Notes: generated by a model from the sequence alone, not told the origin. A DNA stretch of 64,000 nucleotides from Thermodesulfovibrionia bacterium (GCA_947259645.1 CAMYND010000009.1:7241-71240), one strand, 5' to 3'; counted from the stretch's first letter, positions 11,355 to 40,488 are shown. Numbers and translations: made by a program.

Positions 11355-13376
11355 TTGAATCAATTGGAATTAATAACATATATATCAATAAATATATTCC
11401 TCTTTTCTTCCTGGTACGTTCTGCTGTTCAACGTGAGAGACAACCTTTCCTTCGTTGACCGGTTGATCGGGACATTTATATGCGGCTTGACTCAGATCAT
11501 AGCAACTCAAATGATGCTCGGGGTAGTATTCAGGTGGCTTTATCCTGCACCGCTCTTCATTCTTAACCTGTTATTATCAGCAGGAGTTATGTTCATTGCT
11601 TTCCGGTTCGGGAACAACAAAGGTATGTTCACGGAAATTCGGAATGCATTTGTCAGAATTTCAGGAATAATCATCAAAGACAAGGCACTGCTCTGTATAT
11701 TTTGCATGTTCGTTCTCTTATTCTGCTGGCTTGTCCTTACGGGTTACCTTTTTCCCTCCTATTCATGGGATGCCCTCTATTATCATCTCCCCATGGTCGG
11801 CCAGATTATGCAAAGCGGTGCTATCCAGGAACATTCCAACCCCTCATTTATTCAGCAGTATATGAATATCTTCTCAAAAAATATTAACCTTTTTTTCCTC
11901 TGGAATATCATATTTCTTAAAAGCGACAGAATAGTGGACCTGAGCCAGCTCTTTTTTGTCATCGCGGGAGTCCTTTCGATCTATAGCATGGCAATTAAGA
12001 TGAAAATACGGGAACAATACGCGCTGTACTGTTGTCTTCTTTTTTTCTTTACCCCTGTTCTTGTTCTGCAGGCAACAACAAATTATGTTGATGCTGCAGT
12101 CTCTATGCTTTTCCTTATCGCGGTTAACTTTCTGATATTTGACGAGCAAGGAAATAATACGGGAAAAAGCAGGGAATCGTTCCTGTTCGATGAGGGGAGA
12201 ATATCAGTTTTGTTGTCCGGGCTGGCAGGGGGGATATTGCTTGGGTCAAAGCCGACAGGGCCGTTTTATATTGTTGTTCTGTTCCTGGCGGTCTTTATCA
12301 GGGAAATGATGCAGCAGCGCGGACAATTTAGCTCTGCCTCCCCCGGTAAGGGCAATCTGATGATAAAGGGACTGCAGACGTATTTCTTTTGCTTTGTTCT
12401 GCCTGTTGTTCTCGGGGGAGGTTACTGGTATTTGAGGAACTGGATAGTTTACGGAAACCCGGTATATTACGTGGATGTGTCTATATTTAATGTTTCGATT
12501 TTTAAGGGCTTAGAAAAAAACTGGGTTGAGGCTGCTCCTCAAGCTATCGAGAACTTGAATTATGCAACAAGGCTTGTTCATGTATGGCTTGAGCGGGTCG
12601 GATATTACATGTATGACTCAAAGTTTAGCGGGTTTGGCCCTTTATGGTTTATTCTTTTTTTGCCAAGCATTCTATTTTCAGTGATCTATGGTGTTGCAAA
12701 AAAGAAAAATAATTTACTGTTTGTAATATTCGTGTTTCTTGTAGCTTTTGCCCTGTATCCACGAAACTGGATAACGAGGTACGTTATTTTTATTGTCGGT
12801 ATGGGGGCTCTCTCGTTCGGAATTGTACTGGAGTACTTTCATGAAAGAGAAAAGGGACTTAAATGTATTGCCCTGCTCCTGGCCGGATATGCCTTTATGA
12901 CAGCCAACTCCCCCTGCGTAATGCCCGGAAAAGTAAAGGAATTTATCTCTCTGCCTGCTGACGAGCGAACGCTGGCGAATCATAAGCCATTTAATATCGA
13001 TATCAAGGTCCGCCGGGAGTACGGGTACTGGATATGGATAAAGAACAATGTACTGAAAGGCGACACACTGGCATACACTTTTGAGACCTTTAAAATAGAG
13101 GCATTAAAGCCGGTCTTTACCGCCCCCCTCTGGAACAGTGAATTTTCAAACAAGGTCGTCTACCTGAAAAATGAAACATACAGTGAATGGGTGAAGGCAC
13201 TGACTATGGCTCAGGCTTCATATATTTTAATCAGAACAGGTTCCGCTGAAGATGTCTGGGTCGAAAAAGAAAGAAAAATTTATTACTCTCTGAGCTGGAT
13301 GGGCGGCCTGGTAGAAAAGTATAAAATTTTATATGCAGATGAACACTACAAAATAGTGCAGTTTAACAAAGGATAG
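11355..13376 (+). CDS. polytopic membrane protein, GT-C-like glycosyltransferase (ArnT/PMT family-like); start codon uncertain (TTG or an internal ATG)
   Basis: About 12 predicted TM segments in the N-terminal two-thirds and a soluble C-terminal domain. This is the GT-C (GT39/GT83) architecture. No catalytic motif confirmed. Confidence 0.35.
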   Translation: MNQLELITYISINIFLFSSWYVLLFNVRDNLSFVDRLIGTFICGLTQIIATQMMLGVVFRWLYPAPLFILNLLLSAGVMFIAFRFGNNKGMFTEIRNAFVRISGIIIKDKALLCIFCMFVLLFCWLVLTGYLFPSYSWDALYYHLPMVGQIMQSGAIQEHSNPSFIQQYMNIFSKNINLFFLWNIIFLKSDRIVDLSQLFFVIAGVLSIYSMAIKMKIREQYALYCCLLFFFTPVLVLQATTNYVDAAVSMLFLIAVNFLIFDEQGNNTGKSRESFLFDEGRISVLLSGLAGGILLGSKPTGPFYIVVLFLAVFIREMMQQRGQFSSASPGKGNLMIKGLQTYFFCFVLPVVLGGGYWYLRNWIVYGNPVYYVDVSIFNVSIFKGLEKNWVEAAPQAIENLNYATRLVHVWLERVGYYMYDSKFSGFGPLWFILFLPSILFSVIYGVAKKKNNLLFVIFVFLVAFALYPRNWITRYVIFIVGMGALSFGIVLEYFHEREKGLKCIALLLAGYAFMTANSPCVMPGKVKEFISLPADERTLANHKPFNIDIKVRREYGYWIWIKNNVLKGDTLAYTFETFKIEALKPVFTAPLWNSEFSNKVVYLKNETYSEWVKALTMAQASYILIRTGSAEDVWVEKERKIYYSLSWMGGLVEKYKILYADEHYKIVQFNKG

Positions 13377-13683: not shown

Positions 13684-15108
13684 ATGAAATCTCAAAAAGC
13701 ATTATTCATTGTTCCTCCAACAGGCCTGTTTTACCGGGATGACCGCTGTCAGGTTTCCTTAAAGGGCGTGTCAAACGCTCCCCGGCCTCCTCTGGATCTG
13801 GCCTATATGTCAGCAGTCCTCGAGGAAAAGGGTGTTGAGTGCAGAATGCGGGACTATCCCGTTGAAAACGGAACATGGCAGGATGTTAAAGCGGATATTG
13901 CCGGTTTCGCGCCCTCAATGCTTATCATTTATACAACGATCACATCTGTGAAGGAAGACCTGCGTGCCTGCAAGATTGCCAAAGACATTGATGCCGGAAT
14001 TATCACGATTGCAAAGGGCGGTGACACGACAATCCGTCCGAATGAACGCCTTGAGCTTTGTGAGCAGCTCGATATTGCGATAGTCGGTGAACCAGAGATG
14101 ACACTTCTTGAAATAGCAGAGGGCAGGGACCTGAAAGATATCGATGGTATCTGTTACCGGGATAATGGGGAAATAATGAACACCCCCAAGAGGCAGTTTC
14201 TCGAAGACATTGACAGTTTGCCATTCCCTTCACGGCACCTTCTGGACCAAAGCAAATACCTCAGGCCTGACACCGGTGAAGTACAGACTACAATTCAGTC
14301 AAGCCGGGGCTGCCCGTCCAAGTGCATCTATTGTCTCAGCAGGGTTGTTGCGGGTCCTGATTTGAGGCTCCGTTCTCCCAGAAACGTGGTGGATGAGCTT
14401 GAACACTGCGTGAAAGAGCACAACATTAGAAATTTTTTCTTCAGGGCGGACACATTTACCTGGGACAAGGAGTGGGTCCTGACCGTGTGCGCTGAAATCA
14501 TGAGAAGGAACCTTGATATCCAGTGGGTGGCAAACAGCAGAGCGGACACGATTGATAATGACAGGCTTGTCTGGATGAAGAAAGCGGGATGCTGGCTGGT
14601 ATCTTTTGGCGTAGAAAGCGGTAACCAGGAAATTCTTGACCTGACCAAGAAGGGGATTACCCTTGAACAGTCAAGAGAGGCCCTGAGGCTGGCGAAAAGA
14701 AACGGGTTGAAGACCTTTACGACATATCTTATCGGGATGCCCTGGGACACGAAAGAAACAATTATGCAGACGTTTGATTTTGCCAGGGAAATAGACAGTG
14801 ATTTCTTTGAGGTCATCCTGCCATATCCTTTTCCCGGGACAACATACTATGAAATAGCAAAGCGGGACAACCTGATACTGGACGGTGTGTATGATACAAT
14901 GTATGACCATTTCAGATCTTTTGTCAAAACCTACCATCTTTCAGCAGATGAACTGACTGACCTGAAAAAGAAATCCTTCTGGTACTTATACGCACGGCCC
15001 AAATATGTGAAGAAAATAATTGCTCAATGCGATTCCCCGCGGGCATTTATGAATTATCTCTCCTTCGGCGTAAACAAGATGAAGGCCCATTTCGCCTCTT
15101 CCCAATAG
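13684..15108 (+). CDS. B12-binding domain / radical SAM domain protein
   Basis: N-terminal cobalamin-binding-like Rossmann region. Radical SAM cluster motif CPSKCIYC (CxxxCxxC). Confidence 0.75.
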   Translation: MKSQKALFIVPPTGLFYRDDRCQVSLKGVSNAPRPPLDLAYMSAVLEEKGVECRMRDYPVENGTWQDVKADIAGFAPSMLIIYTTITSVKEDLRACKIAKDIDAGIITIAKGGDTTIRPNERLELCEQLDIAIVGEPEMTLLEIAEGRDLKDIDGICYRDNGEIMNTPKRQFLEDIDSLPFPSRHLLDQSKYLRPDTGEVQTTIQSSRGCPSKCIYCLSRVVAGPDLRLRSPRNVVDELEHCVKEHNIRNFFFRADTFTWDKEWVLTVCAEIMRRNLDIQWVANSRADTIDNDRLVWMKKAGCWLVSFGVESGNQEILDLTKKGITLEQSREALRLAKRNGLKTFTTYLIGMPWDTKETIMQTFDFAREIDSDFFEVILPYPFPGTTYYEIAKRDNLILDGVYDTMYDHFRSFVKTYHLSADELTDLKKKSFWYLYARPKYVKKIIAQCDSPRAFMNYLSFGVNKMKAHFASSQ

Positions 15109-30722: not shown

Positions 30723-32168
30723 CTAACCCTTGATTACTCCCAGAGGCCTGAGTCTTGCCACTTTCCTTGATAAGCCCGCCTTATGCACAACATTTACAAC
30801 AGCGGAAACATCTTTATACGCTTCGGGCATTTCTTCCGCAAGGGTGTTTCTTCCCGTTGCCCTTACAATTATACCTTTATCTTCCATTTCACGCCAGATC
30901 GCCCTTCCTTTCGCATTTTTGATTGCCTGGTGTCTTGACATGACCCGTCCTGCACCGTGGCATGTAGAGCCGAAAGAATCTTCCATCGCCTTTTCAGTCC
31001 CGACCAGGACATATGAGGCCCGTCCCATGTCTCCGGGTATGATTACCGGCTGGCCAATGGCTTTGTATCTGTCCGGAAGGTCAGGGTGATTCGGACAGAA
31101 AGCCCGTGTTGCGCCTTTCCGGTGAACCACCAGTTTTTTCTTCTGACCCTCAATAACATGCTCTTCAATTTTTGCGATATTGTGGGCAACGTCATAGATG
31201 AGCGTCATCCCGATTGATCCGGGACCGGTCTTAAAAACCCGCATGAAGGACTCCTCCACACGGTTCATGATCAACTGTCTGTTTGCCCAGGCATAATTTG
31301 CTGCGGATTTCATGGCAGAAAGATAAGCAGCAGCCTCAGGGCTTTTTATTGGAGCGCAGGCGAGCTCCCGGTCAGGCAGTTCTATCCCATATTTGTTGGC
31401 AGCCTGCTGCATGACCTTAAGGTAATCAGTGCAGACCTGATGGCCGAACCCCCGTGAACCGGTATGAATCATGGCTGTAACCTGACCTTCAAAGAGTCCG
31501 AGAGTGCGGGCAACTGACTCATCATATATTTCATCGACCCATTGTATCTCTGTAAAGTGATTGCCCGAGCCGAGTGTTCCCAGTTGCGCGCGTCCCCGTT
31601 CGTAGGCTTTTTTGCTTATGCTCTCAGGATCCGCACCATCAAGGCATCCCCCTGACTCTGTGTTCTCAAGGTCTTCACTGTCACCGAAACCCCGCTCCAC
31701 AACCCAGCGGGCCCCTCCTGTTAACACGTTCCTTTGCTCTCTTGTATCAAGGGGAAGCGCACCCTTTGAACCAACACCAGTAGGAATCTCCCGGTAAAGC
31801 TCTTCAATGAGATCCTTTATTCTCGGGATGGTCTCTCGCCGGTCAAGATTAGTTCTCATGAGCCTGACGCCGCAGTTAATGTCATAACCCACCCCCCCCG
31901 GTGACACGATTCCATCATCCCCGTCAAAGGCGGCAACCCCGCCTATGGTGAAACCATACCCGGTATGAATGTCCGGCATTGCAAGAGCATTCCCCACGAT
32001 CCCGGGCAGTGACGCCACATTTGCCACCTGATTAACCGCTTTCTGTTCAAGCATCTCTTCAAGGGCTTTGTCTGCGTATATAATGCCCTTTGTCCTCATG
32101 CCGGTTCCGTATCCCCTTGGCACTTCAATCCTGTTGCTGTCTATTCTCTTAAGGCCCTTCATAGTCAT
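30723..32168 (-). CDS. rtcB: RNA 3'-phosphate/5'-OH ligase RtcB
   Basis: LPGIVGNALAMPDIHTGYGFTIGGVAAFD, GAGRVMSR and GSGNHF are RtcB metal/GMP-site motifs. Confidence 0.9.
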   Translation of the reverse strand: MTMKGLKRIDSNRIEVPRGYGTGMRTKGIIYADKALEEMLEQKAVNQVANVASLPGIVGNALAMPDIHTGYGFTIGGVAAFDGDDGIVSPGGVGYDINCGVRLMRTNLDRRETIPRIKDLIEELYREIPTGVGSKGALPLDTREQRNVLTGGARWVVERGFGDSEDLENTESGGCLDGADPESISKKAYERGRAQLGTLGSGNHFTEIQWVDEIYDESVARTLGLFEGQVTAMIHTGSRGFGHQVCTDYLKVMQQAANKYGIELPDRELACAPIKSPEAAAYLSAMKSAANYAWANRQLIMNRVEESFMRVFKTGPGSIGMTLIYDVAHNIAKIEEHVIEGQKKKLVVHRKGATRAFCPNHPDLPDRYKAIGQPVIIPGDMGRASYVLVGTEKAMEDSFGSTCHGAGRVMSRHQAIKNAKGRAIWREMEDKGIIVRATGRNTLAEEMPEAYKDVSAVVNVVHKAGLSRKVARLRPLGVIKG

Positions 32169-32378
32169 GAGATCGCTCCTTCCTGAAGGCTGTTTGGGGT
32201 TACCTCGATATTCCTTTGATCTTGTATATACATTATATATCCAATATAACCGTTGCCTGAATTATCGGTTACTATTATTATATGAGTACAGCAAGGAAAA
32301 ACATATTCATAACAGGAGCGCCGTCATCGGGGAAGACTACTGTGAAAAAAAAGTTATTGCTCAGATCAGGGAATTGCT

Positions 32379-32879
32379 TTGAAAAGTAATATCACCCTCA
32401 TCGGTATGCCCGGTTCCGGCAAAAGTACGACCGGCATCATTCTGGCAAAAAACCTGTCACTTGGGTTTATAGACACAGACATATTAATACAGATTAACCG
32501 CCAGAAATCGCTTCAGGAAATAATGGACGAGACGAATTACCTGAACCTGAGAACAGTTGAGGAAGAAGAGATCCTGAAAATTAATGTTGCAAATCATGTG
32601 ATAGCCACAGGAGGAAGCGCGGTGTACAGTGAAAGGGCCATGCGTCATTTGCAGGACATATCAGCCATAGTGTACCTTGAGGCATCGCTCAGTGAAATAG
32701 AAAAAAGGATCACAAACTTCGGGACAAGGGGAGTTGCCAAAGCCGAGGACCAGAGCTTCAGGGAGCTCTTTGAAGAGCGGCAGGCACTGTATGGAAAATA
32801 TGCTGAGGTGACTGTAGCCTGTAACAGCATAGTTCAGGATGAAGTTGCCCGCAGGATAGCGCTGAAATTAAAAAACTGA
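32379..32879 (+). CDS. aroK: shikimate kinase-like P-loop kinase
   Basis: Walker A GMPGSGKST. DTD motif FIDTD. Length about 166 aa. Confidence 0.55.
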   Translation: MKSNITLIGMPGSGKSTTGIILAKNLSLGFIDTDILIQINRQKSLQEIMDETNYLNLRTVEEEEILKINVANHVIATGGSAVYSERAMRHLQDISAIVYLEASLSEIEKRITNFGTRGVAKAEDQSFRELFEERQALYGKYAEVTVACNSIVQDEVARRIALKLKN

Positions 32880-33024
32880 AGAAACAGGACGTATAGATGT
32901 TATAATGAAGCGGCTCGTGTCCGGCATGATATATTGACAAAGCTGAGTCGTAAACAGTGTGAGGTCCAATTATTAGAGGTTCTCCTTCATATGATGCCAG
33001 ACAGAAATTTAAAGCAAAACAATT

Positions 33025-33912
33025 TTGGCAAACAGTAAAAAAATCTCTGAAGTTATCATGACCGCGATAAGAAATATATCTACAATATTCATAACAGCTT
33101 TTCTTTTGCTTTTCGCTTCAGGGTATAGCGAAGAGACAGCCCAGGACAGTGATGATAAAAGTCTGCACTATGCCTCAGAGGGTAAATTTGAAGAGGCAAA
33201 AAAGGAAGTCCTTAAGGAACTGGAATCGAACCCTTTCAACAGGCGCGCCCAGGAGTCTCTTTTGGTGATTGAAGATGTTATAAATGAAAAAATAAAAAAG
33301 GATACAGCTCTCAGACTCTTCGAGGGGGAGATGTCGTACAGTAAGGGCTCCTTTGACAACGCGATAAACGCGTATGATGCCGCCATAACCGCTGAACCGG
33401 ATTATTATATTTCATACGTGAAACGAGGAGTGGCGCATACAAGGAATCGAAAGTATCAGAGCGCCCTGTCAGACTTTGACCGGGCCATAGAGCTGCGGCC
33501 TGAATATTCTGTATCATACACGAATCATGGAATAGTCTACGCCAAGCAGAAGCAGTTTAATGAGGCTATCTCAGACTATAACTTGGCCCTCGAAATAGAA
33601 CCGGGTGACCCTGATGCCTATTATAACAGGGGGGTTGCTCATGGTAAGCTGGGCAAGTATGTTCTCGCCATCCTTGATTACGACAGGGTCACAGAGATAA
33701 TCCCGAAATATACAAATGCCTATACAAACCGCGGTTTTATCTACCTCATGAATCTTGAGAACAAAAAAATGGCCTGCGCGGACTGGGACAGGGCATGTGA
33801 ATTAGGGGAGTGCGGCAATTATACCCTTGCGAAGGAAAATGGTTTTTGCGACGGAGGCGATGACCACCCTTCTCAAGAAGGAGCTCATAACGATAGCGGT
33901 CACAGGCATTAA
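33025..33912 (+). CDS. TPR-repeat lipoprotein
   Basis: Signal peptide. Six or more TPR repeats (AINAYDAAI..PDYYISYVKRGVAH..). Cys-rich C-terminus. Confidence 0.55.
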   Translation: MANSKKISEVIMTAIRNISTIFITAFLLLFASGYSEETAQDSDDKSLHYASEGKFEEAKKEVLKELESNPFNRRAQESLLVIEDVINEKIKKDTALRLFEGEMSYSKGSFDNAINAYDAAITAEPDYYISYVKRGVAHTRNRKYQSALSDFDRAIELRPEYSVSYTNHGIVYAKQKQFNEAISDYNLALEIEPGDPDAYYNRGVAHGKLGKYVLAILDYDRVTEIIPKYTNAYTNRGFIYLMNLENKKMACADWDRACELGECGNYTLAKENGFCDGGDDHPSQEGAHNDSGHRH

Positions 33913-34105
33913 GTAAAGATATATCAGGTTTACAAAATATATTTAATGACAAAAACGCAAAGGATGCTCGAAAATTATGCCCTCGGTCATTTGCTCTGGG
34001 ATTTATATAGGGTTTAGGCTGAATGAAGCAAAGGAATTGAGGGACATCAGACCGTTAAATCTGAAGCAGACGGCGGTTTAATAAAAACAGTGCTTGAAAA
34101 CATGA

Positions 34106-34474
34106 ATGAATCCAAATGAAATGAAAAAACAGAGTGGATTTATTGAGTTTCTTGGTGAGACGTTTGAAGAGTTTGGGTTAATTGATGCTCGCAGGATGTT
34201 TGGCGGTTATGGGATATATCATGATGGTATTATGTTTGGCCTGGTTGAAAATGATACCCTCTATTTAAAAGCGGACGAAAAAACAGAGAAGCTCTTTGAA
34301 TCCAAAGGACTTACTCAATTCCAATATTCCAGGGCAGGCAAAATAGTGAAAATGTCATACTACAGGGCACCGGAAGAAATTTATGATGATCGAGAGAAAG
34401 CAGCCACCTGGGCAAGACGAGCTTATGAGGCTGCACAAAACAGGGGAATAAAAAAAGAGAAGCAGAAAAAATAA
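34106..34474 (+). CDS. TfoX/Sxy N-terminal domain protein
   Basis: MFGGYGIYHDGIMFGLVENDTLYLKAD...FQY..GK matches the TfoX_N signature. Confidence 0.55.
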   Translation: MNPNEMKKQSGFIEFLGETFEEFGLIDARRMFGGYGIYHDGIMFGLVENDTLYLKADEKTEKLFESKGLTQFQYSRAGKIVKMSYYRAPEEIYDDREKAATWARRAYEAAQNRGIKKEKQKK

Positions 34475-34572
34475 ATGAAATTAAAGCGAAAAAATATAAA
34501 TTCAAAAAGCTGTGTTAAGATTACTATAGAAAGAGAAGCAAAAAAAGCATAAAAAACAATAGGAGGAATGCT

Positions 34573-34908
34573 ATGAAATACTTAGTTACGGCATCAGATG
34601 GTCCTGGATTTGCTTCGCAAGAAGAAGCATTGGAAGTGTTGCAAGATGTTATTCTTCCGAGTTTCAGCAAATTAATCGAACTCGAGAAAAAGAAAAAGAT
34701 AATTGCGGGTGGTCTTCCGGTTGGCGACAGAGCATTTGTATTCATGGTGGAGGCTAAGTCTAACGATGAACTGGACCAAATGCTGAGACAACTTCCGATG
34801 TGGGGAGAGTTTGATTGGGAAGTAACTGCATTGCAGACATTTAACGGAAGAGCCAAGCAAGAGCGACAGGCTGTACGAGAGCTTAAAAAGGCTATAAGAG
34901 CAAAATAG
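34573..34908 (+). CDS. muconolactone delta-isomerase-like (dimeric alpha+beta barrel) protein, tentative
   Basis: About 110 aa. DELDQMLRQLPMWGEFDWEV resembles the MIase family core. Confidence 0.3.
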   Translation: MKYLVTASDGPGFASQEEALEVLQDVILPSFSKLIELEKKKKIIAGGLPVGDRAFVFMVEAKSNDELDQMLRQLPMWGEFDWEVTALQTFNGRAKQERQAVRELKKAIRAK

Positions 34909-35098
34909 AGTAAATAAGCTACATCCTATTCACGCACCTGCCTGCCGACATGAAAAGGAGACCTGTGATAAATTCATAAAGGGTGATGAAGGTCTCACCG
35001 ATACTCGGCATTAAAATATCTGAGAGTTAAATATAAAAACAATTTAAAATCAGTAGGATAAAGTCCTGCTGTTAAAAACAGAAAAGTAAGGAGTATAT

Positions 35099-36061
35099 AT
35101 GAGTTCGTTTGGTTCAAATACGCGGCGTGGGAAATCACGACCGCAGCAGCGTTCGCATGCGTCAGCACGCAGAGTTGTTTCTTCTGATGAGAAAAAGTTT
35201 CTTGCCGGTACAGCCGTAAATCCGCATCCGCGCATTATTCTTGAGAAAGGCAGTGATGATTTGTCCATCCGCGCGCTTGATCTTATTTGTCCGATAGGGA
35301 TGGGTCAGCGCGCTCTGGTAGTATCATCGCCAGGACTGGGTAAAACGACATTTTTAAAGAATATCAGCAATGCGGTAACAAACGGATATCCTGACATGAA
35401 GGTATATTGCGTCCTTGTTGATGAGCGCCCCGAGGAGGTGACTGATTTTACGCGTAGTGTGAGTGCCACAGTGTATTCCTCATCTATGGATCATGGACAT
35501 GAAAACCATATTAAGATTGTCGATAAGGTTATCGCAGAGGCATTTACGGAAGCGGCTGCAGGGCATAATGTGGTGATATTGCTTGATTCACTTACGCGTC
35601 TGGCGCGGGTGCATAACGCACAGCACCGGGGCGGAGGGCGTACGATGTCCGGGGGAGTGGGTGCTGGTGCACTTGAAGTCCCACGTCGTATTTTCGGTAC
35701 TGCCCGCAATGTAGAGGGTCTCGGCTCTATAACTATCATTGCGACGATTCTGGTAGATACAGGCAGTGCTATGGACAATGTTATATTTGAGGAGTTTAAA
35801 GGCACAGGTAATATGGAGCTGGTGCTCTCGAAAGAACTGGCGCAAAAAAGGGTGTTCCCGGCAATCGATGTGACAAAGAGTGCTACCCGGAAAGCTGAGC
35901 TTTTGTTTGAGCCTGATGAGTACAGGCATCTTGAAATATTGTACCGGGGCATGGCATCAGTGGATAATGTTACCGCTATGGAAAAGCTGATTGAAATGCT
36001 TCAGAAATATCCTGATAATAACGCTCTTTTAGAATCATTGAAGAATCTTAAGGTTAGTTAG
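35099..36061 (+). CDS. Rho-like RecA-type ATPase lacking the N-terminal primary RNA-binding (OB/CSD) domain
   Basis: Aligns by eye with Rho from the linker onward. Shared segments include RALDLICPIGMGQRALVVSSPGLGKT (Walker A), VLVDERPEEVTDF, ILLDSLTRLARVHN, TGSAMDNVIFEEFKGTGNMELVLSKELAQKRVFPAIDV and the R-loop. The ORF starts at an AAGGAG-preceded ATG with no upstream ORF encoding an OB fold. Confidence 0.65.
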   Translation: MSSFGSNTRRGKSRPQQRSHASARRVVSSDEKKFLAGTAVNPHPRIILEKGSDDLSIRALDLICPIGMGQRALVVSSPGLGKTTFLKNISNAVTNGYPDMKVYCVLVDERPEEVTDFTRSVSATVYSSSMDHGHENHIKIVDKVIAEAFTEAAAGHNVVILLDSLTRLARVHNAQHRGGGRTMSGGVGAGALEVPRRIFGTARNVEGLGSITIIATILVDTGSAMDNVIFEEFKGTGNMELVLSKELAQKRVFPAIDVTKSATRKAELLFEPDEYRHLEILYRGMASVDNVTAMEKLIEMLQKYPDNNALLESLKNLKVS

Positions 36062-36198
36062 GGATGGTGTTTCAAGGTTAAAGAAGATTCCAGGGAGTCA
36101 GGGATATACTAGTATCAAGTTATTGAATCGAATGGTAAAAAGCTTGTGTAAGACGTATTATTGAACTTGTATGACTCGCACTGGCTTAAAGAAAAAAG

Positions 36199-37002
36199 AT
36201 GTCTAACTCAATTCCCCCTATGTCCAACTATCGAATGACTATTTCTTATGATGGGCGGGCTTTCCTTGGCTGGCAGCGACATGGAAATCAGCCGACTGTT
36301 CAGTACGCCCTTGAGCAGGCGGTGGAGCAGGTGTTTAATGTCCGGGTGCCGGTACGGGGTTCCGGTCGCACTGATCGCGGAGCCCATGCGCTCGGTCAGG
36401 TGGTGAGCCTTCAGCTTCCGAATGGGTCAGAGCCCGAAGAAATCAAGAATAAGCTGAATGATGTTCTGCCTGTGGATGTGCGAATAGCGGATGTGCGTAA
36501 TGCATTGCCAGACTTTCATGCCTGTGATTCCGCCATTGCCAAGCGCTATCGTTATATCATCTGGAATGACAGTAAATTGCCGGCAGAACTTGATGGGCGG
36601 GTATGGCACATCAAGGAGCCTCTTGATCTGAAAGCGATGAATGACGCCTGTTCGATATTCGTAGGAGAGCATGATTTTGCTTCCTTTGCAACGCGACCAA
36701 ACTTCAAACAAAAATCAACCCGCCGCACTGTTATCGAGGCTGTTATCACGCATGAATTACCAACGATAACGTTCAAAATCTCGGCAGACGGATTTCTCTA
36801 CAAGATGGTGCGCAATATTGTACGTGCAATTGTTAAGGCAGGAGAAGGACGGTACACGCGTGACGACCTTTGTCGCATTCTTGATGCGAAAGACCGCAAG
36901 GCATCCCCCGGAACCGCTCCTGCATCAGGACTCTACCTTGAACGTGTGTTTTATCCAGAAGATCAAATTTCAGAGACAGCCAGGGGAGGAACCTCTCAAT
37001 GA
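36199..37002 (+). CDS. truA: tRNA pseudouridine(38-40) synthase TruA
   Basis: ISYDGRAFLGWQRH...VRGSGRTDRGAHALGQV carries the catalytic Asp motif. Start may be the internal ATG at 36220. Confidence 0.85.
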   Translation: MSNSIPPMSNYRMTISYDGRAFLGWQRHGNQPTVQYALEQAVEQVFNVRVPVRGSGRTDRGAHALGQVVSLQLPNGSEPEEIKNKLNDVLPVDVRIADVRNALPDFHACDSAIAKRYRYIIWNDSKLPAELDGRVWHIKEPLDLKAMNDACSIFVGEHDFASFATRPNFKQKSTRRTVIEAVITHELPTITFKISADGFLYKMVRNIVRAIVKAGEGRYTRDDLCRILDAKDRKASPGTAPASGLYLERVFYPEDQISETARGGTSQ

Positions 37003-37499
37003 ACCAATTTGTGCACCAGCGCCATAAAACCGAATCCAGGCTGAAGCGATCTCGCGAGCTTGTTGTTGCCTGCGCCCCCATGCGCAGCAATGTGAATGTC
37101 TCAAGCATTGCCCGGACAGCAAGTGCCTGTGCGGTGGAAAGACTTATTTTAATCGGCAATGCAAGCCTTATTTCAAAAATTGCCCGGGACAGTGTTTCTG
37201 AACTGGAGGTATCAATTCACCGAACATTGAAACCGGTGCTGCAAAAGCTCCGTGATGACGGCTATCGTCTGGTCGGCCTTGAACAGACAACCAACTCAAC
37301 GAGCATACATAACTACGGTTTTACAAGACGTACTGCGCTGGTAGTGGGAAACGAACGTACCGGATTAAAAGCCGATATCCTTGATATATTAGACGATGTG
37401 GTTGAGATCCCGGTATACGGACTTCCCCATAGCTTCAATGCCGCAATCGCGGCCAGTATGACATTATACGAATATTGCCGGCAGTTTCCCAACGGGTAA
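36999..37499 (+). CDS. SpoU-family (TrmH/TrmL-like) RNA 2'-O-methyltransferase
   Basis: SpoU motifs LVGLEQTTNSTSIH, ALVVGNERTGL and IPVYGLPHSFNAAIAASMTLYE. Overlaps the truA stop (ATGA). Confidence 0.75.
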   Translation: MNQFVHQRHKTESRLKRSRELVVACAPMRSNVNVSSIARTASACAVERLILIGNASLISKIARDSVSELEVSIHRTLKPVLQKLRDDGYRLVGLEQTTNSTSIHNYGFTRRTALVVGNERTGLKADILDILDDVVEIPVYGLPHSFNAAIAASMTLYEYCRQFPNG

Positions 37500-37751
37500 T
37501 CTGCACTGAACACTAGCAACTATCAGATATGGTGCAAACTCCCTGCATGACTTCTTCAGCTTATTTGTCATCCTCCGACGCGATCGGGGGATCCAGTAAG
37601 TTATAGTGAAAAATAGATTCCCCGATTAATTCGGGGAATGACACCACGTTTAATATTCATAAACGAGTCAAAGCGCTGCCTTCAGAAATTGTGCCATCAG
37701 TCGTTAACGTGTAAAATAGGAGCAAACGAATCAGGAAAGAATATAAATACA

Positions 37752-39362
37752 ATGAAATCTCATGACAAGATGAATTTGGAGAATGCACTAAATTTTGACA
37801 ACAAATATACCCGGGAGCTTCCGGCAGACCCCGAAACCTCTCATGAGACACGGCAGGTTACGAACTCATGTTATTCCAGAGTCCAGCCAGTAAAGGCAGG
37901 AGCCCCTGAGTTAGTGGCTTTCTCCAGAGAGATGGCCGAAGAAGTAGGCCTTTCCTCTGAGCTCTGTGAGTCTGAGGAATTTGTGGAGGTTTTTTCAGGC
38001 AATAAGGTTTTATCCGGTATGGATCCCTATGCCACCTGTTATGGTGGGCACCAGTTTGGCAGCTGGGCCGGCCAGCTCGGGGATGGTCGTGTTATTAACC
38101 TGGGAGAGATAGTAAATAAAGAGGGAAGAAGGTGGGTGCTTCAGCTTAAGGGTGCCGGCCCTACTCCCTACTCAAGAAGGGGAGATGGTTTTGCGGTATT
38201 ACGATCATCGATTCGTGAGTTTCTCTGTAGCGAGGCCATGTATCACCTCGGGATCCCTACGACGAGAGCATTAAGTCTTGTAACCACCGGAGATCAGGTG
38301 ATCAGGGATATGTTTTATGATGGTAACCCTCAGCCAGAGCCTGGAGCGATTGTCTGTCGAACAGCGCCATCATTTACACGATTCGGTAATTTCGAGATTC
38401 TTACCTGGAGAGGAGAACTGGATCTGCTGCGCCGCTTCGCCGATTACACGATACGTACTGACTTCCCGCACCTGGGTGAGCCATCAAAGGAAGTATATTG
38501 TGCATGGTTTGATGAGATCTGTACATCAACAGCAGAGATGATCGTGCACTGGCAGCGTACAGGTTTTGTGCATGGAGTAATGAATACAGATAACATGTCT
38601 ATTCTGGGACTCACTATCGACTTTGGTCCCTATGGATGGCTCGAGGATTATGATCCGGGCTGGACACCCAATACTACGGATGCACAGGGCCGCAGATACC
38701 GATTTGGCAACCAGGCCGAGATTGCACAGTGGAATCTTATCCAGCTTGCAAACGCAATTCATCCCTTAATTGGTGAGGTTCAGCCTCTGGAGGACTCGAT
38801 ACAGACCTATGTAAATCATCATCGTGATACCTGGCAAAGAATGATGGCAGATAAATTAGGGCTTGCCGGTTTCAATAAAGAGAGTGACAATAAACTGATC
38901 ACGGATATGCAGGATCTGCTTCAGTATGTTGAAACAGACATGACTATATTCTTTCGCAGACTGGCAGCGCTTGATGTACAGAGCACTGTTGCGCGTAGTT
39001 CATCTGTCCATAACCTTATAGAGCATTTCTCTGATGCCTATTATCTGTCAGAGCAGTTAAATGATGAATATATAGTCATGCTTGATACATGGATAACGCA
39101 CTACAAGGCACGGCTGAATCATGACAAGACCCCGGATGATCTGCGCAGGGTAAAGATGAATAAAGTAAATCCTGAATATATCTTCAGGAACTATATCGCG
39201 CAGCTCGCAATCGACAAAGCGGAAAAAGGGGATTACTCTATGGTGAATGAATTGCTTGAGGTACTGAGGAAACCCTATGATGAACAGACTGGCAAAGAAG
39301 AGCTTTCAAAAAGACGTCCTGAATGGGCGCGCCATCGCGCAGGTTGCGCTATGCTATCCTGA
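37752..39362 (+). CDS. selO: protein adenylyltransferase SelO (YdiU/UPF0061 family)
   Basis: FDNKYTRELP N-terminus. YATCYGGHQFGSWAGQLGDGR, LKGAGPTPYSRRGDG, FNYGV (MNTDNMSILGLTIDFGPYGW) and C-terminal motifs are typical of SelO. Confidence 0.85.
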   Translation: MKSHDKMNLENALNFDNKYTRELPADPETSHETRQVTNSCYSRVQPVKAGAPELVAFSREMAEEVGLSSELCESEEFVEVFSGNKVLSGMDPYATCYGGHQFGSWAGQLGDGRVINLGEIVNKEGRRWVLQLKGAGPTPYSRRGDGFAVLRSSIREFLCSEAMYHLGIPTTRALSLVTTGDQVIRDMFYDGNPQPEPGAIVCRTAPSFTRFGNFEILTWRGELDLLRRFADYTIRTDFPHLGEPSKEVYCAWFDEICTSTAEMIVHWQRTGFVHGVMNTDNMSILGLTIDFGPYGWLEDYDPGWTPNTTDAQGRRYRFGNQAEIAQWNLIQLANAIHPLIGEVQPLEDSIQTYVNHHRDTWQRMMADKLGLAGFNKESDNKLITDMQDLLQYVETDMTIFFRRLAALDVQSTVARSSSVHNLIEHFSDAYYLSEQLNDEYIVMLDTWITHYKARLNHDKTPDDLRRVKMNKVNPEYIFRNYIAQLAIDKAEKGDYSMVNELLEVLRKPYDEQTGKEELSKRRPEWARHRAGCAMLS

Positions 39363-39628
39363 AGCTCATAAATCTCTTATGGATTAAGAGAAAAATTAGC
39401 TTGGTTGTATCTTCATCTCTGAAAATTCCGGAGATTACTTTGCATTGTATCGTGTTCATGGCTATGATCATCATTATAATTTTGTATGGTATTTCGGCTA
39501 CCTGCACAGTAAACCATTACCAGTAGTGACGAAATTGACTGCGATTAGTTTTGTCTATACAATTCATCTTTCGGCATGTTATCGTCATACAGGCACTCGT
39601 TATGCAATTCTGTGTTATGATTTAATCT

Positions 39629-39979
39629 ATGAAAATAACGTTCATATATAATGCGAACAGCGGCAAGATTAATACCTGGTTAGATATTGGCCATAAGTTA
39701 ATAAGTCCAGATACATATTCATGTAATCTCTGTTCCTTAACTCATGGTGTATTCTCTGAGAGAGAAGAATGGAAAAAATATAGAGAAGAAAGTTCTCTTG
39801 AATTAGAGTTTCTGCATAAGGATGAATTTGAAAAAATATATAAAGGAACTGAACAATATACATTTCCCATAATACTTAAATCAGAAGAAGATGGTAAATA
39901 TGAAGTGCTTGTATCTACAGATCAGGTGAATAAGCTTAAAGATATAGGGGATTTGATTAAAATCCTGCCAAGATCATAG
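39629..39979 (+). CDS. hypothetical protein with a CxxC motif, in a low-GC patch
   Basis: 116-aa ORF with CNLC. No confident family. Confidence 0.3.
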   Translation: MKITFIYNANSGKINTWLDIGHKLISPDTYSCNLCSLTHGVFSEREEWKKYREESSLELEFLHKDEFEKIYKGTEQYTFPIILKSEEDGKYEVLVSTDQVNKLKDIGDLIKILPRS

Positions 39980-40086
39980 CTATGCGTTGCTGAGCTCATT
40001 CGTTATAAAAAAAATAATATATATGAAGGAGCAACATTCAGGGTTGCATCGTACAATGTGATATTATCTAAGCGAGAATCGTATCG

Positions 40087-40488
40087 ATGGAAGCATTAGT
40101 AAGGCCCATTGGCTCTATAGAAACACCCTACAAAAAGCTCAATGAATGCCCAAGAAACATTGAGCCCAATGGCCCGGTTTGTAAATTGGTTATCAGTAAA
40201 GATTTAATTGATGGTCTATATGGACTTAGTGTGGGGCAAGACATATTAATACTTTACTGGTTTGATAATGTTGATCGGAATATACTTCAAAAACATTCAA
40301 AAAAGACAGGGGAGTTTTCCGGAGTCTTTGCACTAAGATCGCAAAACCGCCCTAATCCTATAGGGGCAGCCATAGTGAAAATCGAGAGCATTGAAAATGA
40401 ATCTATTTATGTGAAAGGGCTTGACTGCCTCAGTGGAACACCTTTGTTAGACATAAAGCCGGCAAAGTTCTCTGAAATTAATAGATGA
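40087..40488 (+). CDS. TsaA/YaeB-family SAM-dependent methyltransferase (TrmO-like)
   Basis: IGSIETPYKKLNECPRN, GLSVGQDILILYWF and RPNPIG match the UPF0066/TrmO N-terminal domain. Confidence 0.6.
   Translation: MEALVRPIGSIETPYKKLNECPRNIEPNGPVCKLVISKDLIDGLYGLSVGQDILILYWFDNVDRNILQKHSKKTGEFSGVFALRSQNRPNPIGAAIVKIESIENESIYVKGLDCLSGTPLLDIKPAKFSEINR

What the first reader, a model, noticed from the sequence alone, without database searches (positions are those of the whole stretch)
35099..36061. Rho paralog lacking the entire N-terminal primary RNA-binding domain
The 320-aa product aligns by eye along the Rho ATPase domain (P-loop, Q-loop, R-loop, arginine finger region). It begins at the connector immediately after where the OB-fold would end. 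There is no upstream ORF in any frame that could supply the missing domain. A strong RBS (AAGGAG) precedes the ATG, so this is not an obvious truncation artefact. An NTD-less Rho could form hexamers with RNA-dependent ATPase activity but no rut-site recognition. It could also poison full-length Rho. Either way it is a non-canonical termination factor.
Basis: partly seen in the sequence, partly recalled or inferred. Interest (0 to 1): 0.5.

Follow-up and report, generated by a model that had tools for sequence, protein, structure and literature searches.

The report
Rho motor lacking its RNA-recognition domain
This is a real, conserved gene for a shortened relative of the bacterial transcription terminator Rho that keeps the ATP-driven motor, replaces the RNA-recognition domain with a short positively charged tail, and belongs to a large, uncharacterised group found in several phyla.

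Summary
Window 35099-36061 (+) encodes a 320-aa protein. Residues 38-315 are a complete Rho C-terminal ATPase domain, 46% identical to E. coli Rho 137-417. The N-terminal helix bundle and the OB-fold RNA-binding domain are both absent. A TAA stop lies three codons upstream of the ATG, and AAGGAG lies 5 nt upstream. About 30 of 37 related loci share this layout, so it is not a truncation or mis-start.

The gene is under purifying selection (dN/dS about 0.15), the same as neighbouring selO. All catalytic motifs are kept. The missing domain is replaced by a roughly 32-residue Arg/Ser/Gln-rich disordered tail.

The protein belongs to a broad clade of OB-less Rho-like proteins. This includes over 120 clusters in Nitrospirota, plus Omnitrophota, Sericytochromatia and many cultured Gammaproteobacteria. 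In Gammaproteobacteria canonical Rho is universal, so there the short form is an extra copy.

I could not check whether this genome also carries a full-length rho. My best reading is an accessory hexameric RNA translocase that loads through basic tails rather than rut recognition. This class is only catalogued as "Rho-like" in the literature and is functionally uncharacterised. I rate it a new variant of a known kind, of moderate interest.

The parts
35099..36061 (+). CDS of the 320-aa OB-less Rho-family ATPase
   Evidence: Orthologues share 72-100% identity and almost all are 315-330 aa.
35087..35093 (+). In-frame TAA (35087-35089) overlapping the Shine-Dalgarno AAGGAG (35088-35093), 5 nt before the ATG
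   Evidence: The layout stop, then three codons (G-V-Y), then ATG is conserved in about 30 loci. The open frame never extends into an N-terminal domain.
35099..35209 (+). N-terminal basic tail (aa 1-37: MSSFGSNTRRGKSRPQQRSHASARRVVSSDEKKFLAG), replacing the Rho primary RNA-binding domain
   Evidence: pLDDT is about 36 for residues 1-20. Across 35 loci the median tail length is 32 aa and the median net charge is +6. The RRGxSRPQQRS motif is conserved and expanded by repeats in L011, L023 and L035. Other OB-less Rho relatives also have Arg/Lys-rich tails.
35180..35248 (+). Connector (aa 28-50: SSDEKKFLAGTAVNPHPRIILEK), equivalent to the E. coli Rho linker at about 128-152
   Evidence: E31, F34, T38, A39, P42, I46, L48 and E49 are invariant in the family. 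The region aligns to E. coli from residue 137.
35324..35350 (+). Walker A / P-loop (aa 76-84: SSPGLGKTT). K82 corresponds to E. coli K184. G79 replaces E. coli K181.
   Evidence: K181 is Gly in 13 of 17 OB-less sequences, against Lys or Arg in 12 of 12 canonical ones.
35420..35437 (+). DERPEE motif. E109 is the catalytic Glu (E. coli E211) and R110 the Arg valve (R212).
   Evidence: Invariant in the family and in all groups compared.
35576..35599 (+). Walker B (aa 160-167: ILLDSLTR). D163 corresponds to E. coli D265.
35624..35668 (+). Q-loop region (aa 176-190). R181 corresponds to E. coli K283 and S184 to T286.
   Evidence: Arg and Ser at these positions are also the commonest residues in canonical Rho.
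35759..35776 (+). R-loop (aa 221-226: TGSAMD). A224 replaces E. coli K326.
   Evidence: The position is Ala in the core Nitrospirota group and Arg in deeper members. Canonical Rho also shows Arg, Lys, Ala or Thr here.
35879..35899 (+). Arginine-finger segment (aa 261-267: SATRKAE). R264 corresponds to E. coli R366.
   Evidence: Invariant. A trans-acting finger implies that ring assembly is retained (inference).
34948..35098 (+). Conserved upstream block, presumed to be the promoter plus 5' leader of the gene
   Evidence: Nucleotide similarity to about 20 loci begins between 34948 and about 35010, repeatedly at exactly 34948/34951, and ends 2-15 nt after the stop, although the flanking genes differ. 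There is no Rfam match. The RNAalifold consensus is weak and no covarying helix was found.

Best explanation
The gene encodes a functional, independently expressed member of a distinct OB-less branch of the Rho family.

**What it keeps.** It has the whole RecA-type motor of Rho: the P-loop, catalytic Glu, Arg valve, Walker B, Q-loop and trans-acting Arg finger. It most likely still assembles into a hexameric ring that hydrolyses ATP when RNA lies in the central channel.

**What it lacks.** It has no helix bundle and no OB fold. These form the pyrimidine-specific primary (rut) binding site and the surface that docks on RNA polymerase and NusA. In their place each subunit carries a disordered tail of about 32 residues with net charge about +6.

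**Proposed mechanism (inferred).** Six such tails tether the ring to RNA electrostatically and without sequence preference. The motor would then act on transcripts regardless of C-richness.

**Likely status.** By analogy with its relatives in Gammaproteobacteria, it is most likely an accessory second Rho-type factor working beside a canonical Rho, not a replacement.

**Shown versus inferred.** Shown: the domain architecture, motif retention, conservation of the start site, purifying selection, and the breadth of the clade. Inferred: hexamer formation, RNA-dependent ATPase activity, tail-mediated loading, accessory status in this genome, and the cellular target.
For: - **Architecture:**
- **Genuine start:** stop, RBS and ATG are conserved in about 30 of 37 related loci.
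- **Selection:** dN/dS is 0.12-0.19. This equals neighbouring selO against CP070632.1, where both genes have dS about 0.5 and dN about 0.075.
- **Motifs:** all catalytic residues and the Arg finger are invariant.
- **Tail:** it is disordered, basic, conserved, and expands by repeats. Arg/Lys-rich tails recur in independent OB-less relatives P0128, P0167, P0217, P0133, P0172, P0262 and P0224, and in the gammaproteobacterial MTRKxLxLKVKRNK motif.
- **Phylogeny:** OB-less forms group apart from canonical Rho in an NJ tree, with bootstrap 61-69%.
- **Accessory status elsewhere:** the clade occurs in cultured Colwellia, Shewanella benthica, Endozoicomonas, Ketobacter and Spartinivicinus. One copy is on a phage-like plasmid. 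Pseudomonadota is not among the phyla listed as lacking functional Rho.
- **Independent expression:** there is no conserved operon partner, and the gene has its own conserved leader.
Against: - No biochemical data exist for any member of this class.
- The presence of a canonical rho in this genome, or in its close relative CP070632.1, was not verified.
- In E. coli, occupancy of the primary site promotes ring closure and activation (own knowledge). A motor without that site might be inactive, or might need a partner.
- The R-loop lysine (E. coli K326) is Ala here, and the P-loop K181 is Gly. Either could change RNA coupling or nucleotide handling.
- Basic tails could serve another purpose, such as protein docking or condensate formation.
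- Bootstrap support for a single OB-less clade is only moderate.
Confidence: 0.55

Rival explanations
1. Sole Rho. In this Thermodesulfovibrionia lineage the canonical rho has been lost. The OB-less protein is the only Rho-type termination factor and works without rut recognition.
For: - No canonical Rho NTD was seen in the 64-kb window or in about 600 kb of flanks from 36 related loci.
- The gene is inherited vertically at the same rate as a housekeeping neighbour.
- It is present in many related MAGs.
- NCBI names it simply 'Rho'.
Against: - The flanks cover well under 1% of each genome, so absence there says little.
- The clade's relatives in Gammaproteobacteria are clearly extra copies.
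- The nearest full-length Rho is only about 50% identical, and no Nitrospirota-like full-length relative stands out. The gene clusters with OB-less forms from other phyla. It is therefore not a recent truncation of the resident rho.
- Nitrospirota is not among the phyla listed as lacking functional Rho in a 2730-genome survey.
- One MAG carries two copies plus a decayed fragment. That pattern is more typical of an accessory gene.
Confidence: 0.2
2. Modulator or poison subunit. The short protein co-assembles with full-length Rho into mixed hexamers. This lowers the number of primary RNA-binding sites per ring and tunes or inhibits termination.
For: - Subunit-interface elements such as the trans-acting Arg finger are retained.
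- Hetero-hexamers have been suggested for other two-rho species (PMC11347177).
- The gene has its own conserved leader, compatible with regulated expression.
Against: - Identity to any canonical Rho CTD is only 45-51%, so interface compatibility is uncertain.
- Full conservation of every catalytic residue under purifying selection is not required for a mere poison.
- The conserved basic tail argues for an RNA-contacting role of its own.
- Not tested here.
Confidence: 0.15
3. Rho-derived motor with a different substrate. It would be a ring ATPase acting on ssDNA, on proteins (as FliI/T3SS ATPases do), or in RNA maturation or decay rather than transcription termination.
For: - Neighbours are often RNA-modification or RNA-processing genes. 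In the window these are RtcB, TruA, SpoU and TrmO. In Ketobacter they are RIO1 and a pseudouridine synthase. In Endozoicomonas it is RsmJ. In CP070632.1 they are RNase H and NYN.
- The RNAP/NusA-docking NTD is absent.
Against: - Similarity to FliI, T3SS and F1 ATPases is far weaker: at most 91 bits, against 352 for Rho.
- The Q-loop RNA-contact residues follow the Rho pattern.
- The neighbourhoods are not conserved, so the RNA-gene association may be chance.
Confidence: 0.08
4. Artefact: a mis-started, frameshifted or decaying rho gene.
For: None beyond the short length.
Against: - An in-frame stop lies three codons upstream, and a strong RBS is present.
- About 30 loci share the identical layout.
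- More than 120 protein clusters have the same length.
- dN/dS is about 0.15.
- No NTD-like sequence occurs in any frame upstream.
Confidence: 0.01

Closest known systems
Canonical transcription termination factor Rho (E. coli type; TIGR00767 / PRK09376)
   Same: - The C-terminal RecA-type ATPase domain is 46% identical, with Walker A/B, catalytic Glu, Arg valve, Q-loop, R-loop scaffold and Arg finger.
- The fold is the same.
- The score passes the PRK09376 cut-off, so NCBI annotation names such proteins Rho.
   Different: - It lacks the N-terminal helix bundle (PF07498) and the OB-fold primary RNA-binding domain (PF07497).
- It has a basic disordered tail instead.
- K181 is Gly and K326 is Ala.
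- It fails the TIGR00767 cut-off (339 against 509 bits).
'Group B' / Type 4 Rho, and NCBIfam NF041509 'Rho, short form' (paralog_Rho2)
   Same: - Both are shortened Rho paralogs, found in addition to a canonical Rho in some phyla.
- Catalytic residues are conserved (PMC11347177).
- In my NJ tree the OB-only forms (P0132, P0190) sit next to the OB-less clade. That joint grouping has only 18% bootstrap support.
   Different: - Those proteins lack only the helix bundle and keep the OB-fold RNA-binding domain. This one lacks both.
- It scores 295.6 bits against the 628-bit cut-off of NF041509, and matches only model positions 77-359.
'Rho-like' single-domain sequences of Moreira et al. 2024 (PMC11347177)
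   Same: The paper defines these as proteins with only one Rho domain. They are set aside as not 'functional Rho' and described only in its supplement. This protein fits that definition, having the ATPase domain only.
   Different: - That category is a catch-all. It also contains N-terminal-only proteins and possible fragments.
- The paper gives no clade definition, tail description or function in the main text. The supplement was not available to me.
Rho factors with disordered insertions (Mycobacterium tuberculosis, Bacteroides thetaiotaomicron, Clostridium botulinum)
   Same: Both use Arg/Gly/Gln/Asn-rich intrinsically disordered segments at the N-terminal side of the motor. In those proteins the segments influence RNA choice or phase behaviour (PMC11347177; PMC13650167 abstract).
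   Different: In those proteins the disordered region is added to an intact OB-fold NTD. Here a much shorter tail stands in for the whole NTD.

Membership tests
Canonical Rho (TIGR00767 / PRK09376) | N-terminal helix bundle (Pfam Rho_N, PF07498) | tested here: not met
   Pfam lists only PF00006. Rho models match from position 128 or 131 onward. Canonical Rho hits carry PF07498.
Canonical Rho (TIGR00767 / PRK09376) | OB-fold primary RNA-binding domain (Pfam Rho_RNA_bind, PF07497) | tested here: not met
   tblastn with the E. coli NTD finds nothing in the window or in the short-form loci, but does find it in 23 canonical loci.
Canonical Rho (TIGR00767 / PRK09376) | RecA-type ATPase with Walker A Lys, Walker B Asp, catalytic Glu, Arg valve and Arg finger | tested here: met
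   K82, D163, E109, R110 and R264 align to E. coli K184, D265, E211, R212 and R366. All are invariant in the family.
Canonical Rho (TIGR00767 / PRK09376) | Secondary RNA site: Q-loop and R-loop contact residues | tested here: inconclusive
   The Q-loop has R181 and S184, the commonest canonical residues. The R-loop Lys or Arg position is Ala here, a state also seen in a minority of canonical sequences.
Canonical Rho (TIGR00767 / PRK09376) | Curated whole-protein score cut-off | tested here: inconclusive
   PRK09376 scores 351.8 against a cut-off of 315, so it is met. TIGR00767 scores 339.3 against a cut-off of 509.45, so it is not met.
Canonical Rho (TIGR00767 / PRK09376) | Hexameric ring with RNA-dependent ATPase and termination activity | not testable with these tools
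   Only a monomer model was made. No biochemistry is available.
NF041509 'Rho, short form' / Group B-Type 4 Rho | Retains the OB-fold RNA-binding domain while lacking the helix bundle; curated cut-off 628 bits | tested here: not met
   The score is 295.6 bits and only model positions 77-359 are matched. Type 4 is defined as keeping the RNA-binding domain.
'Rho-like' single-domain proteins (Moreira et al. 2024) | Only one of the three Rho domains detectable (here the Rho-type ATPase) | tested here: met
OB-less Rho clade with basic N-terminal tail (defined here) | Length of about 300-345 aa, PF00006 only, an R/K-rich tail followed by the connector motif xF(L/Y)xGTA(I/V)(N/D)P, and P-loop PG(L/S)GKT | tested here: met
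FliI / type III secretion / F1 ATPases | Curated family score | tested here: not met
   The best score is 91.3 bits against a cut-off of 604.75.

The most novel reading that the evidence does not exclude
OB-less, basic-tailed Rho proteins are a second, mechanistically distinct class of bacterial RNA motor. They would load on transcripts without rut or pyrimidine recognition and without the RNAP/NusA-docking domain. They are conserved from Nitrospirota to marine Gammaproteobacteria and occasionally carried by phage-plasmids. In some Thermodesulfovibrionia lineages such a protein might even be the only Rho-type factor.
Probability: 0.25. Interest if true: 0.75.

Novelty: new variant of a known kind. 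Interest (0 to 1): 0.5.

Why it matters
In all current models of Rho-dependent termination, Rho needs its N-terminal domain. The OB fold selects C-rich, unstructured RNA and primes ring closure. It is also the surface that docks on RNA polymerase and NusA.

Here a large, well-conserved clade under purifying selection keeps every catalytic residue but has discarded that domain. This suggests the motor can be used in another way. It gives a natural 'minimal Rho' for asking what the motor does without primary-site recognition.

Members occur in cultured, tractable bacteria such as Colwellia, Shewanella benthica, Endozoicomonas and Spartinivicinus, so the question can be tested directly.

There is also a practical point. 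Genome annotation currently names these proteins simply 'transcription termination factor Rho'. That can mask true loss or presence of canonical Rho in surveys.

Tried and rejected
1. **Frameshift or mis-start.** Rejected: an upstream stop and the conserved layout are present, and no NTD-like sequence lies upstream in any frame.

2. **Split Rho, with the NTD encoded nearby.** Rejected: there is no NTD-like ORF in the window or in the plus or minus 10 kb around 36 orthologues, and no conserved neighbour.

3. **Recent horizontal transfer or a mobile cassette.** I suspected this because 85-90% nucleotide identity coexists with almost no synteny. Rejected for the Nitrospirota family: neighbouring selO shows the same dS (0.51 against 0.45) and dN versus CP070632.1.

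4. **Phage or defence gene.** There were no close relatives in IMG/VR and none in the phage collection. PHROGs gave no hit for the window protein and only an E = 3e-4 clamp-loader match for the S. ruber homologue. PADLOC gave only weak (E = 3e-5 to 4e-7) P-loop-level matches to mad8. The only phage link is the Spartinivicinus ruber plasmid pB copy.

5. **Structured leader or riboswitch.** Rfam found nothing. The RNAalifold consensus is weak, at -0.8 kcal/mol. A hand-proposed anti-SD / anti-anti-SD pairing did not covary convincingly.

6. **Finding a canonical Rho from the same lineage.** I looked for a full-length hit whose longest contig matched a short-form contig. The query P0138 turned out to be Bacillota. 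Cluster look-ups gave no names. The window protein is not in the gene-position index. This question stays unresolved.

7. **Supplement of Moreira et al. 2024 on 'Rho-like' sequences.** It is not held.

Full report
**1. The observation**

Window 35099-36061 (+) is an ATG-initiated ORF of 320 codons. The sequence shows AAGGAG at 35088-35093, 5 nt before the ATG. An in-frame TAA lies at 35087-35089, so the reading frame is closed three codons upstream of the start.

- Pfam detects only the generic ATP-synt_ab nucleotide-binding domain, PF00006.
- The NCBIfam Rho equivalogs match strongly, but only from model position 128 or 131 to the end: PRK09376, 351.8 bits, positions 128-412 of 413; TIGR00767, 339.3 bits, positions 131-414 of 415.
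- All solved Rho structures align to query residues 38-315, which correspond to E. coli 137-417, with E = 1e-77 to 1e-68.
- An AlphaFold model built on 19 family members has a disordered N-terminus (pLDDT about 36 for residues 1-20). Its best structural matches are Rho chains over about 285 columns, TM-score 0.78.

The two upstream ORFs are a muconolactone-isomerase-like protein and a TfoX_N protein. tblastn with the E. coli N-terminal domain finds nothing in the window. As a positive control, the same query finds the domain immediately upstream of the ATPase domain in 23 canonical-Rho loci fetched in the same scan. No second rho lies in the 64-kb window.

**2. Not an artefact: a conserved family**

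The protein database holds more than 120 clusters (at 90% identity) that are 72-100% identical to this protein. Nearly all are 315-330 aa, and the named ones come from Nitrospirota/Thermodesulfovibrionia MAGs.

A scan of species-representative genomes returned 36 such loci. One is on a complete 3.17-Mb chromosome, CP070632.1. In about 30 of 37 related loci the frame is closed by a stop 0-4 codons upstream of the same ATG. The AAGGAG-TATAT-ATG arrangement is conserved in them, and the frame never opens into an N-terminal domain.

Nei-Gojobori estimates against 17 orthologues give dN/dS of 0.08-0.20 for the core (0.12-0.19 excluding the saturated L033 comparison).

**3. Vertical inheritance, weak synteny**

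Gene neighbourhoods are almost entirely different among loci, although the genes are 80-90% identical at the nucleotide level. I suspected mobility.

However, selO lies two to three genes downstream both here and in CP070632.1. It shows the same divergence as the short rho: dS 0.51 against 0.45, and dN 0.079 against 0.074. The gene therefore evolves like an ordinary, vertically inherited chromosomal gene in rearranged genomes.

No close relatives occur in the viral contigs, phage or plasmid collections. No operon partner is conserved.

**4. Anatomy**

Alignment of 19 family members, with mapping to E. coli numbering, shows these residues to be invariant:
- K82 and T83 of Walker A (E. coli K184, T185);
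- E109, the catalytic Glu (E211);
- R110, the Arg valve (R212);
- D163 of Walker B (D265);
- R181 and S184 of the Q-loop (K283, T286; Arg and Ser are also the commonest canonical states);
- the TGSxMD R-loop scaffold;
- R264, the Arg finger (R366).

There are two departures:
- E. coli K181 is Gly in 13 of 17 OB-less sequences, but Lys or Arg in all 12 canonical sequences examined.
- The R-loop K326 position is Ala in the core Nitrospirota group and Arg in deeper branches. A minority of canonical Rho sequences also have Ala or Thr there.

Retention of a trans-acting Arg finger argues that ring assembly is kept (inference).

The connector (DEKKFLAGTAVNPHPRIILE) is highly conserved. Ahead of it lies a tail with median length 32 aa and median net charge +6. 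The tail carries a conserved RRGxSRPQQRS motif. That motif is duplicated or multiplied in L011, L023 and L035. In L035 there are four GRRQRPNQP-like units.

**5. The wider clade**

An exhaustive HMMER search of 1.84 billion representatives shows the nearest full-length Rho proteins at only 45-54% identity. No single close full-length relative stands out.

The search also finds other OB-less forms of about 300-365 aa. Their N-termini are again Arg/Lys/Gly-rich and low in complexity: P0128, P0167, P0217, P0133, P0172, P0262 and P0224. One is annotated from Candidatus Sericytochromatia.

An NJ tree of the ATPase domains places several groups together and apart from canonical Rho. These are the Nitrospirota family, the Sericytochromatia and Omnitrophota forms, and a gammaproteobacterial group. 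Bootstrap support is 61-69%, so this is suggestive rather than conclusive. OB-only 'Group B'-like proteins sit adjacent to them, but the grouping that joins them has only 18% bootstrap support.

A profile search seeded with the non-Nitrospirota members returned 120 further clusters of 307-346 aa carrying only nucleotide-binding P-loop ATPase Pfam domains (PF00006, in some with overlapping generic AAA/ABC hits) and no Rho_N or Rho_RNA_bind. They include proteins from cultured Spartinivicinus ruber and S. poritis, Endozoicomonas sp. SM1973 (on its 6.4-Mb chromosome), Ketobacter, Shewanella benthica and Colwellia. Paraglaciecola, Glaciecola and Halioglobus MAGs are also represented.

These gammaproteobacterial proteins share a different but also basic N-terminal motif, MTRKxLxLKVKRNK.

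In S. ruber the gene sits on the 102-kb circular plasmid pB. It lies between holin, terminase and capsid genes on one side and a block of small genes on the other. In the other genomes it is chromosomal.

A survey of 2730 genomes lists no Pseudomonadota among the phyla lacking a functional Rho (PMC11347177, Table 2). In these hosts the short form must therefore be an additional paralog.

**6. What could not be settled**

I could not establish whether this window's genome also encodes a canonical Rho.
- One attempt to reach a Nitrospirota canonical Rho landed in Bacillota.
- The window protein is not in the gene-position index.

The absence of an NTD in about 600 kb of flanks is uninformative.

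Indirect arguments favour co-existence:
- The clade is accessory elsewhere.
- The gene is not a recent truncation of a resident rho.
- Nitrospirota is not among the phyla listed as lacking functional Rho in the survey.
- One MAG carries two copies that are 79% identical, plus a frameshifted remnant.

I put accessory status at roughly 75% and sole-Rho status at roughly 20%.

**7. Mechanism**

Most likely this is a homo-hexameric, RNA-stimulated ATPase and translocase that uses the Rho secondary-site machinery. It would be recruited to RNA by six flexible basic tails rather than by the pyrimidine-specific OB cleft. It would therefore lack rut preference and the NTD contacts with RNA polymerase and NusA.

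The recurrent, independent pairing of OB loss with Arg/Lys-rich tails across the clade is the main support for a tail-loading role. All functional steps are inferred.

The rivals, each with refuting tests given in the structured fields, are:
- sole Rho;
- a modulatory subunit in mixed hexamers, an idea raised for two-rho species in PMC11347177;
- a motor diverted to another nucleic-acid or RNA-maturation task.

**8. Comparison with the known**

- It is not a member of canonical Rho, because two defining domains were tested and found absent.
- It is not a member of NF041509, the 'short form' Rho: it scores 295.6 against the 628-bit cut-off.
- It is not Type 4 / Group B Rho, which keeps the OB fold.
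- It fits the catch-all 'Rho-like, single domain' category. Moreira et al. 2024 set that category aside as non-functional and described it only in a supplement, which I could not read.
- A 2025 review of Rho does not use the terms 'Rho-like', 'truncated' or 'lacking', and its 'paralog' hits concern RfaH.
- Targeted text searches found no characterisation of such proteins.

I therefore rate it a new variant of a known kind: catalogued in passing but not delineated or studied.

**9. Side observation: a conserved leader**

Nucleotide similarity to about 20 loci begins in the leader upstream of the ATG, in about ten of them at exactly window 34948/34951. It ends a few bases after the stop. This defines a conserved leader or promoter block of about 150 nt. 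No Rfam family matches it, and I found no convincing covariation.

Noticed in passing
window 34948-35098: A roughly 150-nt block upstream of the short rho is conserved at about 80-87% identity in about 20 loci with unrelated upstream genes. In about ten of them it starts at exactly the same position. It is A/T-rich and not C-rich. A CTCC element about 40 nt upstream could pair with the GGAG Shine-Dalgarno, but covariation is unconvincing and this window's own copy lacks CTCC.
   Followed up: partly
L026 about 12012-12223, plus L011 (both from MAG JADHUV01): One Nitrospirota MAG carries two intact short-rho genes that are 79% identical to each other. It also has a frameshifted remnant of a third copy about 1 kb downstream of one of them. 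This could be gene duplication and decay, or a mixed bin.
   Followed up: partly
L084 (Spartinivicinus ruber plasmid pB, NZ_CP048880.1) 7908-8867: A 319-aa OB-less Rho lies on the opposite strand between the lysis and morphogenesis genes (holins, terminase, capsid) and a block of small genes on a 102-kb circular, phage-like plasmid. The same region is listed as a provirus in IMG/VR (L067, L085).
   Followed up: partly
L086 7098-7292; L084 11048-11233, 11306-11494, 11712-11873 and about 14882-14998: In Endozoicomonas sp. SM1973 a 64-aa protein with a SutA RNAP-binding domain (PF20661) is encoded immediately downstream of the short rho. Four homologous small genes lie within 2-6 kb of the short rho on S. 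ruber pB. This may link the motor to a small RNA-polymerase-binding protein. It was seen only in these two related cases.
   Followed up: partly
window 30723-40488; L089 5072-8604; L086 3380-4219; L082 13320-15158: RNA-processing or RNA-modification genes are frequent near short rho. The window has RtcB, TruA, a SpoU methylase and TrmO. Ketobacter has a RIO1 kinase 72 nt upstream and an RluA-type pseudouridine synthase. Endozoicomonas has RsmJ. CP070632.1 has RNase H and NYN/YacP. The neighbourhoods are not conserved, so this may be chance.
   Followed up: no
L041, L038, L040 (matches at about 9593-10831 in L041): These carry a divergent full-length Rho whose N-terminal domain is only about 27% identical to that of E. 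coli. One is in a MAG labelled Glaciecola (Gammaproteobacteria), and the others are in Planctomycetota-labelled MAGs. This suggests a further Rho paralog type, or mis-binned contigs.
   Followed up: no
L011, L023, L035 (N-terminal codons of the short rho): The basic tail grows by tandem repetition of its Arg-rich unit, for example four GRRQRPNQP-like units in L035. This is typical of disordered RNA-binding or condensate-forming segments.
   Followed up: partly
window 35333-35335 (codon 79): The P-loop lysine equivalent to E. coli K181 is Gly in 13 of 17 OB-less sequences, but Lys or Arg in all canonical sequences compared. From my own knowledge, K181 is part of the bicyclomycin/ATP pocket. This may therefore alter nucleotide handling or drug sensitivity.
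   Followed up: no
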